Shown one piece after another: positions 49,928 to 59,199 of a stretch of 64,000 bases of DNA. The notes beneath the pieces are model-generated. The model ran no database searches. It was not told where the DNA came from and saw only the letters and a list, made by a program, of their open reading frames with translations. Source of the stretch: the human T2T-CHM13v2.0 reference genome, Homo sapiens. The stretch lies in assembly GCF_009914755.1 (NCBI RefSeq), contig NC_060947.1, one strand, 5' to 3'. Each line of letters opens with the position of its first letter. The first letter of the stretch is position 1. A program made the translations under genes and the position numbers.

Positions 49928-51692
49928 TACATATCCAGTTTAAACACAAAAGGTGGCATACTATACACAATGTTATAGTTCTTTATATTCTGCTTATTGT
50001 CTTCCATGCTTCCTAAAAAGTATTAAAGAATGTAGGTTGACTACCTGATTAATTGGAATAATGAGTTTGAGAATTAGCTATGGAAGGGAAAGACTTTTAA
50101 CTTAAGAAAATGACATTTTAAGTTTACCTAATTTATACTTGTCATCTGAAACTTCTTAATTTGAATATTATGCATAGTGAATTTTGTAGGGTAAAAATGT
50201 TTTAAAGCTACCTTATATTGAAACAAATAATAAATTTTGATGGCAATATCATGGGGTCACTTTCCCGATGAGACCTATTGGTTTTATTCATAAGTTATAA
50301 GTTTATTCTGACAGTACAAACAATTTTGGTGGCAGTAGAAACATATTTATTTTGAATAAGTTATTTCAACATTTCTTTATGTAAATGCTCTATACTTAAC
50401 ATTTGTTTCTCTAGGTTTTGTGTGACCACATTGTTTAGAACTTGGTTAATTTGTAACATAAGACAAATGTGAAAATCTGGCCATCATTAGAGTTGAGGTT
50501 TATTTTGTAGTGTTTGTTTTTATTAATATTAACAAACAGTACAGTATAACTTAAATTAGTTTATGCTCAAAAATTAATTTTTCCCAAAAAGCAAAATCAC
50601 AGGTAGAGTCAAAGACCTAAGTTCCGCATAAGCATTTGCTTGCCTGAAATCAATAAAGTAGGTTAAAAAGTTTAGCCTTGCTGTTGGCAAGATGGCCGAA
50701 TAGGAACAGCTCTGGTCTGCAGCTCTCAGCGAGACCAATGCAGAAGATGGGTGATTTTGGCATTTCCAACTGAGTGGCACCTGGAACCCCAGTGAGACAG
50801 AACCATTCACTCCCCTGAAAGGGGGCTGAAGCCTGGGAACCAAGTGGTCTTGCTCAGCGGGACCCACTCCCACAGAGCCAAGCAAGCTAAGAACCACTGG
50901 CTTGAAATTCTCCCTGCCAGCACAGCAGTCTGAAATTCATCTGGGATGATAGAGCTTGGTGCGGGGAGGGGCATCCACCATTACTGAGGATTGAGTAGGT
51001 GGTTTACCCCCTCACAGTGCTAAGGACTGGGGGGAACTCAACACAGCGCAGCAAAAGGGCTGTAGCCAGACTGCCTCTCTAGATTCCTCTTCACTGGGCA
51101 GGACCTCTCTGAAAGAAAGGCAGCAGCCCCACTCAGGGGCTTATAGATAAAACTCCCATTTCACTGGGACAGAGCACCTAGGGGAAGGGGTGGCTGTGGG
51201 CTTAGCTTCAGCAGACTTAAATGTTCCATTCCTGCCTGCCAGCTGTGAAGAAAGCAGTGGATCCTGACAAGGAGGGTTCTACCAGCACAGCACTGGAGCT
51301 CTGCTAAGGGACAGACTGCCTCCTCAAGTGGGTCCCTAACTCCCATGCCTCCTGACTGGGAGAGACCTCCCAACAGGGGTTGACAGACATCTCACACAGG
51401 AGATCTCCAGCTGGCATCAGGCCAGTGCCCCTCTGGGATGAAAATTCCAAAGGAAGGAGTAGGCATCAATCTTTGCTGTTCTCCAGCCTCCACTGGTGAT
51501 ACCCAGCCAAAAAGTGTCTGGAGTTGACCTCCAGCAAACTGCAGCAGACCTGCAGCAGAGGGGCCTGACTGTTAGAAGGAAAACTAACAAACAGAAAGCA
51601 ATAACATCAACATCAACAAAAAGAACCCCCACATAGAAACCCCATCCAAAGATCATCAACCTCAAAAATCAAAGATAGATAAATCCATAAAG

Positions 51693-52444
51693 ATGAGGAA
51701 AAACCTGGGCAAAAATGCTGAAAATTCCAAAAACCAGAAGGCCTCTTAATAGCAAACTCCTCTGAGCTAAAGGTGCATGTTCTAATTCAATGCAAGGAAG
51801 CTAAGATCCTTGACAAAAGGTTACAAGAACTGCTAACTAGAATAACCAGTTTAGTGAAGAACATAAATGACTTGATGGAGCTGAAAGACACAGCACGAGG
51901 AAAGTGAAGGGGAGAATGGAACCAAGTTGGAAAACACACTTCAGGATATTATCCAGGAGAACTTCCCGAACCTAGCAAGACAGACCAACATTCAAATTCA
52001 GGAAATACAGGGACCACCACTGAGATACTCCTCAAAAAGAGCAACCCAAAGACACATAATCATCAGATTCTTCAAGGTTGAAATGAAGGAAAACAATGTT
52101 AAGTGCAGCCAGAGAGAAAGGTCAGGTTACCTACAAAGGGAAGCCCATCAGACTAATGGCGAATCACTCTGGAGAAACCCTACAAGCCAGAAGAGAGTGG
52201 GGGCCAATATTCAACATTCTTAAAGAAAAGAATTTCAACCCAGAATTTTATATCCAGCCAAACTAAGTTTGATAAGTGAAGGGAAAATAAAATCCTTTAC
52301 AGACAAGAAAACACTGAGAGATTTTGTCACCACCAGGCTCCTGAAGGAAGCACTAAATATGGAATACAAGAGCTCCTGAAGGAAGCACTAAATATGGAAA
52401 GGAAAAACAAGTACCAACCACTGCAAAAACACACCAAAATATAA
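51693..52444 (+). pseudogene. L1 ORF1p, disrupted by two internal deletions and frameshifts
   Basis: ATG at 51693 (MRKN...); peptide ENTLQDIIQENFPNLARQTNIQIQEIQ. Confidence 0.88.
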
Positions 52445-52504
52445 AGACCAATGACACTATGAAGAAACTGCATCAACTAACGTGCAAAATAACCAGCTAG
52501 CATC

Positions 52505-55500
52505 ATGATGGAAGGATCAAATTCACACATAGCAATATGAACCTTAAATATAAATGGGCTAAATGCCCCAATTAAAAGACACTGACTGGCAAAATGAATG
52601 GAGTCAAGAGCCATAGGTGTGCCATATGCTGGAGACCCATCTCATGTGCAAAGACACACATAGGCTCAAAATAAAGAGACAGAGGAATATTTACAGAGCA
52701 AATGGAAGGAAAAAACAAAAAGCAGAGGTTGCAATCCTAGACTGATAAAACATACTTTAAACCAACAAAGATAAAAAAAGACAAAGAAGGTCATTACATA
52801 ATGGTTAGGGGATCAATGCAACAAGAAGAGCTAACTATCCTAAATATATATTCACCCAATACAGGAGCACCCAGATTCATAAAGCAAGTTCTTAGAGACC
52901 TAGAAAGAGACTTAGATTCCCACACCATAATAGTTAGAGACCTTAACATCCCATTGTCAATATTAGACAGATCAACGAGACAGAACATTAACAAGTATAT
53001 TTAGGACTTGAACTCAGCTCTGGACAAAGCAGAACTAACAGATATCTACAGAACTCTCCACCCCAAATCAGCAGAATATACATGCTTCTCAGCAGCACAT
53101 AGCACCTATTCTAAAACTGACCACATATTTAGAAGTAAAACACTCCTCAGCAAATGCAAAAGAATGGAAATCATAACAAACAGCCTCTCAGACCACAGTG
53201 CAATCAAATTAGAGCTGAGTATTAAGAAACTCACTCAAAACTGCACAAATACCTGGAAACTGAACAACTTGCTCCTGAATGACTACTGGAAAAATAACAA
53301 AATTAAGACAGAAATAACAAAGTTCTTTGAAACCAATGAGAACAAAGAGACAATGTATCAGAATCTCTGGGACACAGCTACAGCAGTGTTAAGAGACAAA
53401 TTTATAGCACTAAATGCCCACAGGAGAAAGTGGGAAAGATCTAAAATCAATACCCTAACAGCACAATTAAAAGAACTAGAGAAGCAAGAGCAAACAAATT
53501 CCAAAGCTAGCAGAAGACAAGAAATAACTAAGATCAGGTCAGAAATGGAAGAGATAAAGACACACACACAAAAACTTTCAAAAAAATCAATGAATCCAGG
53601 AGCTGGATTTTTGAAAAGAGAAACAAAATAGATAGACCGCTAGCCAGACAAATAGAGAATAAAAGAGAGAAGAATCAAATAGACAAAATAAACATAGTAA
53701 AGGGGATTTCACCAGTGAATACAAACTACCATGAGAGAATACTATAAACACCTCTAGACAAATAAACTAGAAAATCTAGAAGAAGTGGATAAATTCCTGG
53801 ACACACACACCCTTCCAAGACTAAACCAGGAAGAAGTCAAATCCCTGAATAGACTAATAACAAGCTCTGAAATTGAGGCAGAAATTAATAGCCTACCAAC
53901 CAAAAAATGTCCAGGACCAGACGGATTCACAGCCGAATTATACCAGAGGTACAAAGAGAAGCTGGTACCCTTTATTCTGAAACTATTCGAAACAATAGAA
54001 AAAGAGGGACTCCTCCAAACTCATTTTATGAGGCCAGCATCATTCTGATTCCAAAACCTGGCAGAGACACAACAAAAAAAGAAAATTTCAGGCCAATATT
54101 GCTGATGAATATCGATGTGAAAATCTTCAATAAAATGCTGTCAAACCGAATCCAGCAGCACATCAAAAAGCTTATCCACCACAATCAAGTCAGCTTCACC
54201 CCTGGGATGAAAGGCTGGTTCAACATGTGCAAAACAATAAACGTAATGCATCACATACACAGAACCAATGACAAAAACCACATGACTATCTCAATAGATG
54301 CAGAAAAAGCCTTTGATAGAACTCAACACCCCTTCATGCTAAAAATTCTAAATAAACTAGGCATTGATGGAACGTACCTCAAAATAATAAGAGCTATTTA
54401 TGACAAACCCACAGCCAATATCATACTGAATAGGCAAAACCTGGAAGCATTCCCTTTGAAAACCGGCACAAGACAAGGGTGCCCTCTCTCACCACTCCTA
54501 TTCAACATAGTATTGGAAGTTCTGGTGAGGGCAATCAGGCAAGAAAAAGAAATAAAGGGTATTTAAATAGGAAGAGAGGAAGTCAAATTGTCTCTGTTTG
54601 CAGATGACATGATTGCATATTTAGAAAGTCCCATCATCCCAGCCAAAAATTCCTTAAGCTGATAAGCAACTTCAGCAAGCTCTCAGGATACAAAATCAAT
54701 GTGCAAAAATCACAAGCATTCCTATACACCAACAATAGACCACCAGAGAGCCAAATCATGAAAGAACTCCCATTTACTATTGCTACAAAGAGAATAAAAT
54801 ATCTAGGAATACAACTTAAAACGGATGTGAATTACCTCTTCAAGGAGAACTACAAACCACTGCTCAAGGAAATAAGAGAGAACACAAACAAATGCAAAAA
54901 CATTCCATGCTCATGGACAGGAGGAATCAATATCGTGAAAATGGACATACTGCCCAAAGTAACTTATACCTTCAATGCTATTCCCATCAAGCTACCATTG
55001 ACTTTCTTTGCAGAATTAGATAAGACTACTTTAAATTTCATATGGAACCAAAAAAGAGCCCATATAGCCCAGATAATTTTAAGCAAAAAGAACAAAGTTG
55101 GAGGCATCATGCTACCTGACTTCAAACTATAAGGCTACAGTAACCAAAAAGCATGGTACTCATACCAAAACATGTATATAGACCAATGGAAAGCAACAGA
55201 GGCCTCAGAAAGAACACCACATGTCTACAACCCTCTGATCTTCGACAAACCTGACAAAAGCAAGCAATGGGGAAAGGATACCCTATTTAAAAAATGGTGC
55301 TGGGAAATCTGGCTAGCCATATGCAGAAAAAAGAAACTGGAACCCTTCCTTACACCTTATACAAAAATTAACTCAAGATGGATTAAAGGCTTAAATGTAA
55401 AACCCAAAACTATAAAAACCCTGGAAGAAAGCCTAGGCAACACCATTAAGGGAATAGGCATGGGCAAAGACTTCATGACAAAACAGCAAAGCAATTGCAA

Positions 55501-56306
55501 CAAAAGCCAAAATTGACAAATGGGATCTAATTAAACTAAAGAGCTTCTGCTCAGCAAAAGAAACTATCGTCAGGCAACCTACAGAATGGGAGAAAATTTT
55601 TCAATCTATTCATCTGACAAGGTCTAATATCCAGAATCCACAAGGAACTTAAAAAAATTTATAAGAAAAAACAATGTCATCAAAAAGTGGGTGAAGAATA
55701 TGAACAGATGCTTCTCAAAAGAAGACATTTACGTGGCCAATAAACATGTAAAAAAAAAAAAAGCTCATTATCACTGGTCATCAGAGAAATACAATTCAAA
55801 ACCACAATGAGATACCACCTCACGCCAGGTAGAATGATGATCATTAAAAAGTCTGGAAACAACAGATGCTGATGAGGATGCAGAGAAATAGGAATGCTTT
55901 TACATTGTTGGTGGGTGTGTAAATTAGTTCAACCATTGTGGAAGACAGTGTGGCAATTCCACAAGGATCTAGAACCAGAAATACTATTTGACCCGGCAAT
56001 CCCATTACTGGGTATATACCCAAAGGATTAGAAATCATTCTGCTATGAAGACACATGCACACGTTTGTTTATTGCAGCACTATTTACAATAGCAAGACAT
56101 GGAACCAACCCAAATGCCAATCAATGATAGACTCAATAAAGAAAATGTGGCACATATACATTATGGAATACTATGCAGCTATAAAAAATAATGAGTTCAT
56201 GTCCTTTGCAGGGACATAGATGAAGCTGGAAACCATCATTCTCATCAAACTAACACAGGAACAGAAAACCAAACACCACATGTTCTCACTCATAAATGGG
56301 AGCTGA
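52505..56306 (+). pseudogene. L1 ORF2p (APE-type endonuclease / reverse transcriptase), disrupted by stops and frameshifts
   Basis: Fragments [48 protein letters not shown]; LFADDM codons at ~54593; split across several ORFs. Confidence 0.95.
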
Positions 56307-56629
56307 ACAACGTGAACACATGGGGCACAGGGAGGGGAACATCCCACACCAGGGCCTGTTGCCAGGTGGGGGGAAAGGGGAGGGAGAGCATTATGACAAA
56401 CACCTAATGCATGAGGAGCCTAAAACTTAGATGACGGGTTGATAGGTACAGCAAACCACCATGGCACATGTATACCTATGTAACAATCCTGCATGTTCAG
56501 CACATGTATCACCGAACTTAAAGTAAAATAAACACACACACACACACACACAATCAAATAAAAAGAGGAAGAAGAAGAACATATACCCTTTATAAGAGAT
56601 CATTTTTGTTTTTACTGAGAGACAGTACA

Positions 56630-57077
56630 TATATATATAAACACACACTATATATACATATATATATATATATATAATTATTATTTATCATGAAGAATTG
56701 GCTCATGCGGTTATGGGAACCAAGAAGTCCCATGATCTGCCATCCATATGCTGAAGACCCAGGAAAGCCATTCATGTAGTTCCTCCAGTCCAAACTCGAA
56801 TGCCGGAGAACCTGTCCAAGGCCAGGAAGAGATGAATGTCCCAGCTCAAGCAGAGAGAGAGAGAATTCACACTTCCTTCTTTTTGTTCCATTCAGGCCCT
56901 CCACAAACTGGATGAGGCCCAATACATGGGTAAGAGGGGGATCTTCTATACCCAGTCTACTGACGCTAATCTCTTTCAAAAACACCATGAGTCACAGACA
57001 CACCCAGAAACAATGTTTTACCAGCTCTCTGGGCATCCCTTAGCCCAATCAAGTTGACACATATAATTAACCAGCAC
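56630..57077 (-). mobile_element. MLT2 (ERVL) LTR, lacking its terminal bases
   Basis: Reverse complement 'ggttaattatatgtgtcaacttgattgggctaagggatgcccag'; (TA)-rich segment typical of MLT2. Confidence 0.85.
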
Positions 57078-57263
57078 CAATGGGGAGTTGCTAATTCATG
57101 GGTGTAAAGTTTCAGTGAAGCAAGATAATTAAGTTCTAGAAATTTCGTGTACCATGTTGTACCTATAGTCAGTGATGTTCTATTGTGCACTCAAAATTTT
57201 GCTAAAAGGGTAGATTTCACATTAAGTGTTCTGACCACAATAAAATAAAATTGAAAAAAAAAA
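57078..57263 (+). mobile_element. L1MB1/2-like 3' end with A tail
   Basis: 'taaagtttcagtgaagcaagataattaagttctaga...aagggtagatttcacattaagtgttctgaccacaataaaa'. Confidence 0.8.
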
Positions 57264-58139
57264 CAAAGGGAATAGACATTTCAAATGTGCAGTGGAGGGA
57301 AAGAAAGGGGAGAGTCACAGTTAGGCTAGGGGCTGCTCCTCATTCAGACAAGTGTCCTCACACCATCCACTAAGTCTCTGGGCAGAGATGACAGACGATT
57401 GTGCAAAGAAAAACCTAAGGGCTTTATTTTAAGACCTTCTGTCAGGAAAGGCCTTTGGAGGAGCTTCAACGACTGGACTGCATTCCTGAAGGTCAAACAG
57501 CAGTGACATGATCTGCTGGATTTGGGGAAGCATTTTTAAAAAAGAGGAATAATAAGAAGAACATATACCCTTCATGAGAGATGATTTTTATTTTTTACCA
57601 AGAGACAGAGAAAGAGGCGAGAAAGTTCTGGTAGGAAGGAATTAAAGGGAGATGAGCACCTGCCTCTTCAGCTTCTGTTGAAAGTGCTCTTAAAGCAGCG
57701 GTTTCCAGACAGGGCCAGGTACTTTATTACAAATATTGGAATTTATTTCAATAAGCTCTGTCATTTCTTAGCAGCTGTTTCACTTTACAGCAAACTAACC
57801 AACAGAGGTGTAGGAGGCAGCTTGTCTTTTGTCTTTCATTTTGATGAACTTGATTTTTTTTTTTTTTTGGTGTGATGCTTCTGGCTGAGGCTCACAGGAA
57901 GAGAAGACTCTGTTTTTGTTTTTTGTTTTTGCTTCAGCAGAGGGAATGAGGAGGAGCAGGCGGTGCCTGTGAGCAGCCTACCTTCTCAAGGGTCCCGAGT
58001 TACAAAGAGCAGACATCACGCCCTGTGTCTCTAGTTACAGAACCAGAAGGAAGTGACTGTATTATTCTCCCACATTTATCAGCCCAGGGAAGCCATTCGT
58101 GTGTTCTGAGAGGATCCTATCTTTTATTCTCATAAAAAC

Positions 58140-58322
58140 ATCATTCTATTTTCTTTCTTATCAGGACTTGAGATTAGCCAATTACATTATTGTGTACACC
58201 TTTTCCTTTTCCACTACCAGAATGTAAGGTCCATGATATCAGGAATTCCGACTTATGTATCACTTATGTCTAGAACAGTTCCTAGTACATAGTAGGTAAC
58301 CAGAAAATGATTACTGAATTAG
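58140..58322 (+). mobile_element. L2 3'-end relic
   Basis: 'ccactaccagaatgtaaggtccatga...ctagaacagttcctagtacatagtagg'. Confidence 0.7.
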
Positions 58323-58412
58323 TTACACTTTCCATAAAATCCCAGGTTTTTCTTCCTCTAGGAAGCTTTTGAGAGTTGTCCCAGTACATGTTAATTTTAC
58401 TTACTCCAAGAT

Positions 58413-59035
58413 TGATGGGAATGTAAATTAGCTCGACCATTGTGGAAAATAGTATCTTGATTCCTCAAAAAGCTAAAAGCAAAAATACCATTTAATTCAG
58501 CAATCCCATCGCTTGGTATATACTCAGAAGAATATAAATCATTCTACCATAAAGACACATGCACACGAATGTTCATTGCAGCACTATTCACAATAGCAAA
58601 GACATGGAATCAACCTAAATGCCCATCAATGACAGATTGGATAAAGAAAATGTTGTACAAATACGCCATGGAATACTATGCAGCCATAAAAAAGAATGAG
58701 ATCATGTCTTTTGCGGGAACATGGATGGAGCTGGAGGCTATTCTCCTCAGCAAACTAACACAGGAACAGAACACCAAATACCAGAGGTTCTTGCTTATAA
58801 GTGGGAACTAAATGTTGGGAACACTGGACACGAAGAAGGAAACAACAGACACCAGGGTCTACTTGAGGGTGGAGGATGGGAAGAGGGAGAGAAGCAGAAA
58901 AGGTAACTATTGGGTGCTGGGCTTAATACCTGAATGATGAAATAATCTGGACAACAAACCTGTGTGACACAAGTTCACCTGTGTAACAGAACTTCATATG
59001 TACCTTGAAACCTAAAATAAAAGTTTTTAAAAAAT
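58413..59035 (+). mobile_element. 5'-truncated L1PA15/16-like 3' end
   Basis: MFIAALFTIAKTWNQPKCPSM peptide; older-type 3'UTR; aataaa at 59016. Confidence 0.9.
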
Positions 59036-59199
59036 TCAAAAAAAGTTTAGCCCTGAACAAAACAACAGAAATGTTTTTTATAAAATTTTCTTTATGGAAA
59101 AGAGATAATATATTTATTCACATAACATCAAGCAAACAATCATTATGAAGCAGAGACTAAGAATGGAGGAAATATAATTAATACTTCTACTGATCGCTG

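What the first reader, a model, noticed from the sequence alone, without database searches (positions are those of the whole stretch)
50761..50800. The same L1 appears to derive from a spliced RNA (SpIRE-like 5'UTR junction)
Seen: 'catttccaactgag|tggcacctggaacccc', with the junction at 50774/50775, about 94 nt from the element start. Known: the L1 5'UTR has a splice donor near +97 (ctgag|gtac) that generates spliced integrated retrotransposed elements. From my recall of the L1PA7/8 consensus, the resumed sequence is normally preceded by 'tttttttcataccccag', a good acceptor, so roughly 300 nt with GT...AG ends are missing. Inference: an intron was spliced out before reverse transcription, using an acceptor specific to this older 5'UTR. 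One RNA was thus both spliced and read through, and the copy probably had an impaired promoter from the start.
Basis: partly seen in the sequence, partly recalled or inferred. Interest (0 to 1): 0.75.

Follow-up and report, generated by a model that had tools for sequence, protein, structure and literature searches.

The report
Old L1 copied from spliced RNA
This old L1 retrotransposon on chromosome X was copied from an RNA that had lost a roughly 320-base intron from its leader, and thirteen other copies in the genome carry the same splice scar, so spliced L1 copies date back to L1 families older than those described so far.

Summary

- **The junction:** CCAACTGAG|TGGCACCTGG lies at 50774/50775, 94 nt from the L1 5' end.
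- **The missing piece:** Unspliced relatives carry 295-351 nt (median 321) between the two halves. It starts with GT in 48 of 49 and ends with AG in 44 of 49, behind a T-rich tract. The donor is the known L1 5'UTR donor (CTGAG|GTAC).
- **Recurrence:** The same junction occurs at 14 places in the genome, each with a different 5' flank. That is about 1.2% of copies that keep the acceptor.
- **Independent origins:** One clade of all 14 is rejected (AU p = 1.1e-5), so splicing happened more than once. A chance deletion is effectively excluded.
- **Read-through:** The window copy also carries a 2.5-kb 3' transduction. A 13-bp target-site duplication encloses the L1 plus the extra DNA, and a paralogue of that DNA lies on chr16.
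- **Prior work:** Larson et al. 2018 searched only for junctions defined on young L1s and found no SpIRE97/622 in L1PA7 or older. This looks like an undescribed older SpIRE class rather than a new mechanism.
- **Left open:** 11 of the 14 copies sit in one sub-lineage. Either its 5'UTR was prone to splicing, or a spliced copy kept copying. Promoter impairment is inferred and was not tested.

The parts
50665..50677 (.). 5' copy of the target-site duplication AAAAAGTTTAGCC; the site reads TT/AAAAA, as expected for L1 endonuclease
   Evidence: the only match of 10 nt or more between the 71 nt at the L1 5' end and the 4 kb after the L1 3' end. Sequence.
50681..50774 (+). L1 5'UTR part 1 ('exon 1', 94 nt), ending in the splice-donor exon side ...CCAACTGAG
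   Evidence: In unspliced relatives the next bases are GTACCC.
50774..50775 (+). Splice junction; about 320 nt of 5'UTR (GT...polypyrimidine-AG) are absent
   Evidence: The same junction is found at 14 places in the genome.
50775..51693 (+). Rest of the 5'UTR ('exon 2' side), from TGGCACCTGGAAC to the ORF1 ATG at 51694
51694..56532 (+). L1 body. The ORF1 remnant has two private deletions, at 51747/51748 (97 nt) and 51899/51900 (197 nt), measured against the chr8 copy. ORF2 is broken; the longest open frame is 219 aa.
   Evidence: (alignment with the chr8 and chr3 copies; the deletions are not shared), (3' end ...aaagtaaaataaa).
56533..56558 (+). Degenerate tail of the source L1: (CA)n plus ATCAAAT
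56559..59039 (+). 3' transduced DNA (about 2.5 kb). It ends about 15-20 nt after the AATAAA of an older L1 3' fragment (58410-59035).
   Evidence: paralogue at chr16:8350704-8353321 (minus strand), pieces 83-90% identical, covering window 56559-59034; homology stops at both ends..
59040..59052 (.). 3' copy of the target-site duplication AAAAAGTTTAGCC, preceded by a short A run

Best explanation
[quoted passage not shown] A source L1 was transcribed from its own 5' end. The spliceosome joined the conserved 5'UTR donor (CTGAG|GTAC, the G98U99 donor of young L1s) to an acceptor about 320 nt downstream (T-rich tract, CATACCCCAG|TGG) that lies in the 5'UTR of this older family. The same RNA ran through the L1's own polyadenylation signal and ended 2.5 kb further on, at the AATAAA of an older L1 fragment. 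It was then inserted on chrX by target-primed reverse transcription at a TT/AAAAA site. Shown: the exact GT..AG boundaries, the recurrence in independent insertions, more than one origin, the duplication enclosing L1 plus extra DNA, and the chr16 paralogue. Inferred: that the window copy's own template was the spliced RNA, that the copy was promoter-impaired at birth, and the age of roughly 30-45 million years.
For: (1) Boundaries: of 57 unspliced loci examined, 49 had both anchors. The piece missing here is 295-351 nt, with GT in 48 of 49 and AG in 44 of 49, and a median 78% pyrimidines at -3 to -20. (2) Recurrence: the 27-mer across the junction, with up to 2 mismatches, hits 14 places and the reversed control hits 0. 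A shifted 27-mer hits 12 places, all among the 14. All 14 have unrelated 5' flanks and the junction lies about 94 nt after a canonical L1 5' end. (3) Frequency: 14 spliced against 1140 unspliced acceptor junctions scored the same way, about 1.2%. Larson et al. report about 2% for young L1s (passages). (4) More than one origin: 3 spliced copies carry the diagnostic bases of one subfamily and 11 those of another. One clade of all 14 is rejected (lnL difference 172.7, AU p = 1.1e-5). (5) Retrotransposition marks: a 13-bp duplication at 50665 and 59040 at a TT/AAAAA site. The chr16 paralogue begins 26 nt after the L1 3' end and stops 5 nt before the duplication, just after an AATAAA. (6) The donor is the one Larson et al. 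describe as conserved from L1PA1 to L1PA10 (passages).
Against: No unspliced parent of this particular copy was found: the chr16 paralogue has no L1 upstream of the homologous DNA. No separate poly(A) tail is visible, only an A7 run that overlaps the duplication. The one other copy held in full (chr3) shows no exact repeat of 10 nt or more flanking it. The subfamily name is recalled, not computed. No branch point was identified. No RNA evidence exists or can exist here.
Confidence: 0.88

Rival explanations
1. Inherited scar. The intron was removed by splicing once in this sub-lineage, and the resulting spliced DNA copy (or a chain of them) stayed active and produced the 11 type-A copies, including the window copy. 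On this reading the window copy's own template RNA was not spliced; it was transcribed from an already spliced parent.
For: One clade of the 11 is not rejected (AU p = 0.35). The group was named after the tree was seen. Spliced copies are concentrated in type A: 11 of 14, against a 27% share among unspliced exact hits (p = 9e-5). Five of the 11 share a T at +38 after the acceptor that is rare in unspliced copies (Fisher p = 0.022). A 2025 preprint reports one young SpIRE that regained activity through a host gene promoter (passage).
Against: The 11 split at a transversion site about 285 nt after the acceptor: 7 have CAAC and 3 have CACC. Unspliced copies exist with each state (17 and 15 exact hits). 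The T at +38 occurs with both states, so all four combinations exist. Unspliced copies with that T also exist (15 of 17 hits). A single spliced founder would therefore need parallel mutation or recombination. Larson et al. found spliced 5'UTRs to have much reduced promoter activity (passages). The window copy's transduction is shared with no other copy.
Confidence: 0.12
2. DNA-level deletion or reverse-transcriptase template jump at the two-base AG microhomology, unrelated to splicing.
Against: The identical junction occurs in 14 independent insertions and in two subfamily backgrounds. The ends are exactly GT and AG, with a polypyrimidine tract. The donor is an experimentally known L1 splice donor (passages). 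The other deletions in this same copy, in ORF1, are private and not shared.
Confidence: 0.02
3. The 2.5 kb after the L1 is ordinary chrX flank, the 13-bp repeat is chance, and chr16 holds a segmental duplicate. On this reading there was no read-through. It concerns only the second half of the reader's inference.
For: The source L1 is absent at chr16. There is no clear poly(A) tail.
Against: The chr16 homology begins right after the L1 3' end and stops within 5 nt of the repeat, directly after an AATAAA. By my arithmetic, a 13-mer match in a 71 x 4021 nt comparison is expected about 0.004 times, somewhat more in A/T-rich DNA. At chr16 the 125-nt internal repeat is complete, whereas on chrX its first copy is cut at the L1 end.
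Confidence: 0.07

Closest known systems
SpIRE97/622 (Larson et al. 2018, PLoS Biol, PMC5860796; passages read)
   Same: Intra-5'UTR splicing from the same donor context (CTGAG|GT near +97), followed by retrotransposition. The copies otherwise look full length. The same junction recurs in independent insertions. The share of full-length copies is similar: about 1.2% here against 1.8-2% there.
   Different: The acceptor is about 320 nt after the donor, in an older family's 5'UTR, not 524 nt away at position 622 of L1.3. That paper found SpIRE97/622 only in L1PA1-L1PA6 and none in L1PA7-L1PA17, L1PB or L1MA. Its probes were built from young L1 sequence, so this junction could not have been found.
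SpIRE97/790 and SpIRE97/853 (same paper)
   Same: These are classes whose acceptor is used only in some versions of the 5'UTR, so changes in the 5'UTR switch splice classes on and off. Here too the spliced copies are concentrated in one sub-lineage.
   Different: They belong to different subfamilies (L1PA1-2 and L1PA3-4) and use different acceptors. There the cause is a known 129-bp deletion. Here the cause is unknown; a longer T-rich tract is only a lead.
L1 3' transduction
   Same: The L1 is followed by non-L1 DNA, and the whole is enclosed by one target-site duplication. The extra DNA ends after a downstream polyadenylation signal and has a paralogue elsewhere.
   Different: No L1 now sits at the paralogous chr16 site. 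The combination of splicing and transduction in one copy is a coincidence of two known events, not a new process.
Processed pseudogenes
   Same: An intron is removed from an RNA before L1-mediated reverse transcription and insertion.
   Different: The template here is L1's own RNA, and the intron lies in its promoter-bearing 5'UTR.

Membership tests
SpIRE (spliced integrated retrotransposed element) | An internal gap in an L1 whose ends coincide exactly with GT and AG in unspliced L1s of the same kind | tested here: met
   of 57 loci examined, 49 were usable. GT in 48 of 49, AG in 44 of 49, gap 295-351 nt.
SpIRE (spliced integrated retrotransposed element) | Use of the conserved 5'UTR donor (G98U99 of L1.3, context CTGAG|GTAC) | tested here: met
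   exon 1 ends CCAACTGAG, 94 nt from the 5' end, and relatives continue GTACCC. Larson et al. state the donor is conserved from L1PA1 to L1PA10 (passage).
SpIRE (spliced integrated retrotransposed element) | Marks of target-primed reverse transcription: target-site duplication, endonuclease site, poly(A) | tested here: met
   13-bp duplication at a TT/AAAAA site. The poly(A) is reduced to an A7 run that overlaps the duplication, so that item is weak.
SpIRE (spliced integrated retrotransposed element) | The same junction in independent insertions | tested here: met
   14 places with unrelated 5' flanks. One clade of all 14 is rejected.
SpIRE (spliced integrated retrotransposed element) | The spliced RNA is detectable, and the spliced 5'UTR has reduced promoter activity | not testable with these tools
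   This needs reporter and RT-PCR assays of the kind used by Larson et al.
Published SpIRE classes 97/622, 97/790, 97/853, 97/976 | Junction to the acceptor at 622, 790, 853 or 976 of the young L1 sequence; copies in L1PA1-L1PA6 | tested here: inconclusive
   Here the gap is about 320 nt, whereas the 97/622 gap is 524 nt by their account (passage). The copies are old: the paralogue pieces are 83-90% identical. I did not align to L1.3, because no reference sequence was on hand, so the position in L1.3 numbering is not known.
L1 3' transduction | One duplication encloses the L1 plus extra DNA; the extra DNA ends at a polyadenylation signal; the source locus is identifiable | tested here: met
   The source locus (chr16) holds the DNA but has no L1 beside it.

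The most novel reading that the evidence does not exclude
Spliced copies of this old family were not all dead ends or accidents. In the small sub-lineage marked by GAACTCAAC, to which the window copy belongs, roughly one full-length copy in ten carries the splice scar. This is my estimate: 7 spliced in all, 2 of them among 19 exact hits. Five of the 11 type-A spliced copies share a rare variant 38 nt after the acceptor. The nearest unspliced relatives have expanded T-rich tracts before the acceptor. So either a 5'UTR allele with a stronger acceptor arose about 40 million years ago, wasted a sizeable share of its transcripts on splicing, and was replaced by a successor with no spliced copies (0 of 14). 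Or a promoter-crippled spliced L1 went on copying for a while.
Probability: 0.25. Interest if true: 0.6.

Novelty: new variant of a known kind. Interest (0 to 1): 0.45.

Why it matters
SpIREs were described for L1PA1-L1PA6 with probes built from young L1s, and none of the main class (97/622) was found in older families. This junction shows that the same donor was already yielding spliced, retrotransposed copies in an older family, through a different acceptor. That fits the published view that the donor is retained despite its cost because it overlaps a promoter element. It also adds 14 elements that would pass as full-length L1s but lack about 320 nt of 5'UTR. The uneven spread among sub-lineages offers a natural test of how changes in the 5'UTR tune splicing losses.

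Tried and rejected
- **Shared defects with the chr3 copy:** The window copy pairs with the chr3 copy on the tree (SH-aLRT 94). Their ORF1 deletions differ and the transduction is not shared, so they are not close siblings in any demonstrable way.
- **Unspliced parent:** I looked for one through the transduced DNA. The only full-length paralogue (chr16) has no L1 upstream.
- **Duplication of the chr3 copy:** No exact repeat of 10 nt or more was found.
- **Wider junction searches:** Searches allowing 3 mismatches failed on the server. A shifted 27-mer with 2 mismatches added nothing.
- **Rfam:** No family matches 50500-51800 at E up to 0.1. The LINE-1 ribozyme reported 650-750 nt upstream of ORF1 (passages) was therefore not located.
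- **Papers not held:** Khan 2006 and the two Belancio papers could not be read. Their content is known to me only through Larson et al. and recall.
- **Branch point:** I found no convincing candidate by eye and claim none.

Full report
**What is in the sequence**

One search shows an L1 5' end at about 50681 (ctgttggcaagatggccgaataggaacagctc...). The 19-mer across the junction is unique in the window (0.02 expected), and the window holds only this one L1 5' end of the type.

The ORF1 start is at 51694 and the L1 ends at 56532 (...aaagtaaaataaa). The element is long dead. ORF1 has two internal deletions, at 51747/51748 and 51899/51900 (97 and 197 nt against the chr8 copy). The longest open frame in the body is 219 aa.

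**Is a piece missing, and what are its ends?**

I searched the window's own genome with the 216 nt that follow the junction (2142 first-look candidates, 40 scored, 30 loci kept). Of the 29 loci other than the window itself:
- 26 have a T-rich tract directly before TGGCACCTGG, mostly ending in CATACCCCAG.
- 2 have the window's junction.
- 1 gave no anchor.

I added 30 loci found with the unspliced donor word, giving 57 unspliced loci examined, of which 49 had both anchors. In those, the stretch between CCAACTGAG and TGG[CT][AG]CCTGG is 295-351 nt (median 321). It begins with GT in 48 of 49 and ends with AG in 44 of 49. It has a median 78% pyrimidines at -3 to -20. The 8 unusable loci were L011, L025, L033, L049, L056, L058, L066 and L069.

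**Is it private to this copy?**

No.
- The exact 19-mer occurs at 3 places in the genome.
- The 27-mer across the junction, with up to 2 mismatches, occurs at 14 places, and the reversed control at 0.
- A 27-mer shifted by five bases finds 12 places, all among the 14.
- Searches allowing 3 mismatches failed on the server, so a few badly decayed copies may be missing.

All 14 have unrelated 5' flanks, and in each the junction lies about 94 nt after a canonical L1 5' end. They are separate insertions, not duplicated loci.

Scored in the same way, the unspliced acceptor junction occurs 1140 times and the unspliced donor junction 6784 times. The donor word is shared by more L1 families than the acceptor. 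Spliced copies are thus about 1.2% of copies that keep the acceptor.

**One origin or several?**

I built a tree from the 94 nt before the donor plus the 1100 nt after the acceptor. It has 14 spliced and 49 unspliced rows; the 8 loci named above were left out.
- The tree is star-like, as expected for L1. It places 3 spliced copies (chr14 twice, chr15) in one subfamily background and 11 in another.
- After dropping three long-branch rows (L009, L016, L055), one clade of all 14 is rejected (lnL difference 172.7, AU p = 1.1e-5).
- Diagnostic columns agree: at about twenty positions the 11 and the 3 carry the alternative bases that also divide the unspliced copies.

Within the 11:
- A transversion site about 285 nt after the acceptor splits them 7 (CAAC, including the window copy) to 3 (CACC). 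One has a gap there.
- Unspliced copies exist with each state (17 and 15 exact hits).
- By parsimony that makes at least three splicing events. The step within the 11 rests on one site, however, and an AU test does not reject one clade of the 11 (p = 0.35; the group was named after the tree was seen).

**The read-through**

The only match of 10 nt or more between the 71 nt at the L1 5' end and the 4 kb after its 3' end is AAAAAGTTTAGCC, at 50665-50677 and 59040-59052. The site reads TT/AAAAA.

The 2.5 kb in between (56559-59034) has one full-length paralogue, at chr16:8350704-8353321 on the minus strand. Its pieces are 83-90% identical.
- The homology starts 26 nt after the L1 3' end, behind a (CA)n remnant.
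- It stops 5 nt before the duplication, 15-20 nt after the AATAAA of an older L1 fragment.
- At chr16 a 125-nt internal repeat is complete, whereas on chrX its first copy is cut at the L1 end. The chr16 arrangement is therefore the ancestral one.

This is the anatomy of a 3' transduction. Two weaknesses remain. There is no L1 at chr16 now, so the unspliced parent cannot be shown. The poly(A) tail is only an A7 run that overlaps the duplication.

The divergence of the two paralogues suggests an age of a few tens of millions of years. That is my inference, using recalled rates.

**Mechanism**

The best reading is a SpIRE. An L1 RNA was spliced from the conserved 5'UTR donor to an acceptor in the older family's 5'UTR. 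The same RNA read through into flanking DNA and was inserted by target-primed reverse transcription.

In the passages I read, Larson et al. 2018 state the following:
- The donor G98U99 is conserved from L1PA1 to L1PA10 and lies in a RUNX3 site needed for promoter activity.
- SpIRE97/622 occurs in L1PA1-L1PA6 but in no older subfamily.
- About 2% of full-length L1PA1-6 are SpIREs.
- Spliced 5'UTRs have much reduced promoter activity.

By analogy, the window copy lost the donor half-site and about 320 nt of 5'UTR at birth. This was not tested.

**What is known and what is new**

I found no description of this junction.
- Full-text searches.
- Passages read: Larson 2018, the UCSC Repeat Browser preprint, the LINE-1 recombination preprint, the mini-ribozyme preprint and Wagstaff 2012.
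- Not readable here: the two Belancio papers and Khan 2006 are not held, and I did not open Larson's supplementary tables.

The mechanism is known. The acceptor, the family and the age are new, so I rate it a new variant of a known kind. The subfamily name (L1PA7/8-like) is recall, not a computed classification.

**An unexplained skew**

Exact 23-mer counts at the diagnostic site:

| Type | Exact hits | Spliced among them |
|---|---|---|
| A | 34 | 2 |
| Y (a well-supported clade that I take to be the successor) | 31 | 0 |
| B | 56 | 1 |

- Type A makes up 27% of unspliced hits, yet the tree places 11 of the 14 spliced copies with it (p = 9e-5). Counting only the 13 copies typable at the site, it is 10 of 13 (p = 2.6e-4). 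None of the 14 is type Y (p = 0.014).
- Five of the 11 carry a T at +38 after the acceptor. In exact-pattern counts that T goes with 2 spliced and 4 unspliced copies, and the usual C with 1 and 56 (Fisher p = 0.022; the two patterns differ slightly).
- The six unspliced copies nearest the 11 have longer T-rich tracts before the acceptor. The median is 25.5 nt against 17 and 19, with (T5G)n in two of them (Mann-Whitney p = 0.018). The numbers are small, the groups were named after the tree, and such tracts also grow after insertion.

Either this sub-lineage had a stronger acceptor, or a spliced copy kept copying. I cannot tell which.

Noticed in passing
window 56559-59052 and chr16:8350704-8353321 (loci L080, L087, L088): A 2.5-kb 3' transduction is attached to the L1 and enclosed by the 13-bp duplication. 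Its only paralogue, on chr16, has no L1 beside it; an Alu and a (TA)n run lie just upstream there. The source L1 was either lost or never fixed.
   Followed up: yes
window 56560-56625 and 57472-57599: A direct repeat inside the transduced DNA flanks about 0.9 kb. It is also present at chr16, where both copies are about 125 nt. Part of the enclosed DNA (about 56690-57080) matches many loci at 70-77%, so it is an old interspersed repeat of unknown family.
   Followed up: partly
window 51747/51748 and 51899/51900: Two private deletions in ORF1 (97 and 197 nt against the chr8 copy) without GT..AG ends. The chr3 spliced copy has a different ORF1 deletion.
   Followed up: yes
window 58410-59035: The 3' fragment of an older L1, whose AATAAA served as the end of the read-through transcript.
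   Followed up: partly
L040 (chr12:7485399): This spliced copy has a roughly 20-nt tandem duplication of the end of exon 1 (...CTGCATTTCCAACTGAG twice) just before the junction.
   Followed up: no
chr11:19019471, 19041621, 19063771: Three identical type-Y hits spaced 22,150 bases apart. This points to a tandem segmental duplication that contains an L1 5'UTR.
   Followed up: no
window about 50944-51044: A preprint places a self-cleaving LINE-1 mini-ribozyme 650-750 nt upstream of ORF1 in L1PA6-10. That interval lies after the junction and is retained in this copy. Rfam gave no match for 50500-51800, so its presence here is untested.
   Followed up: partly
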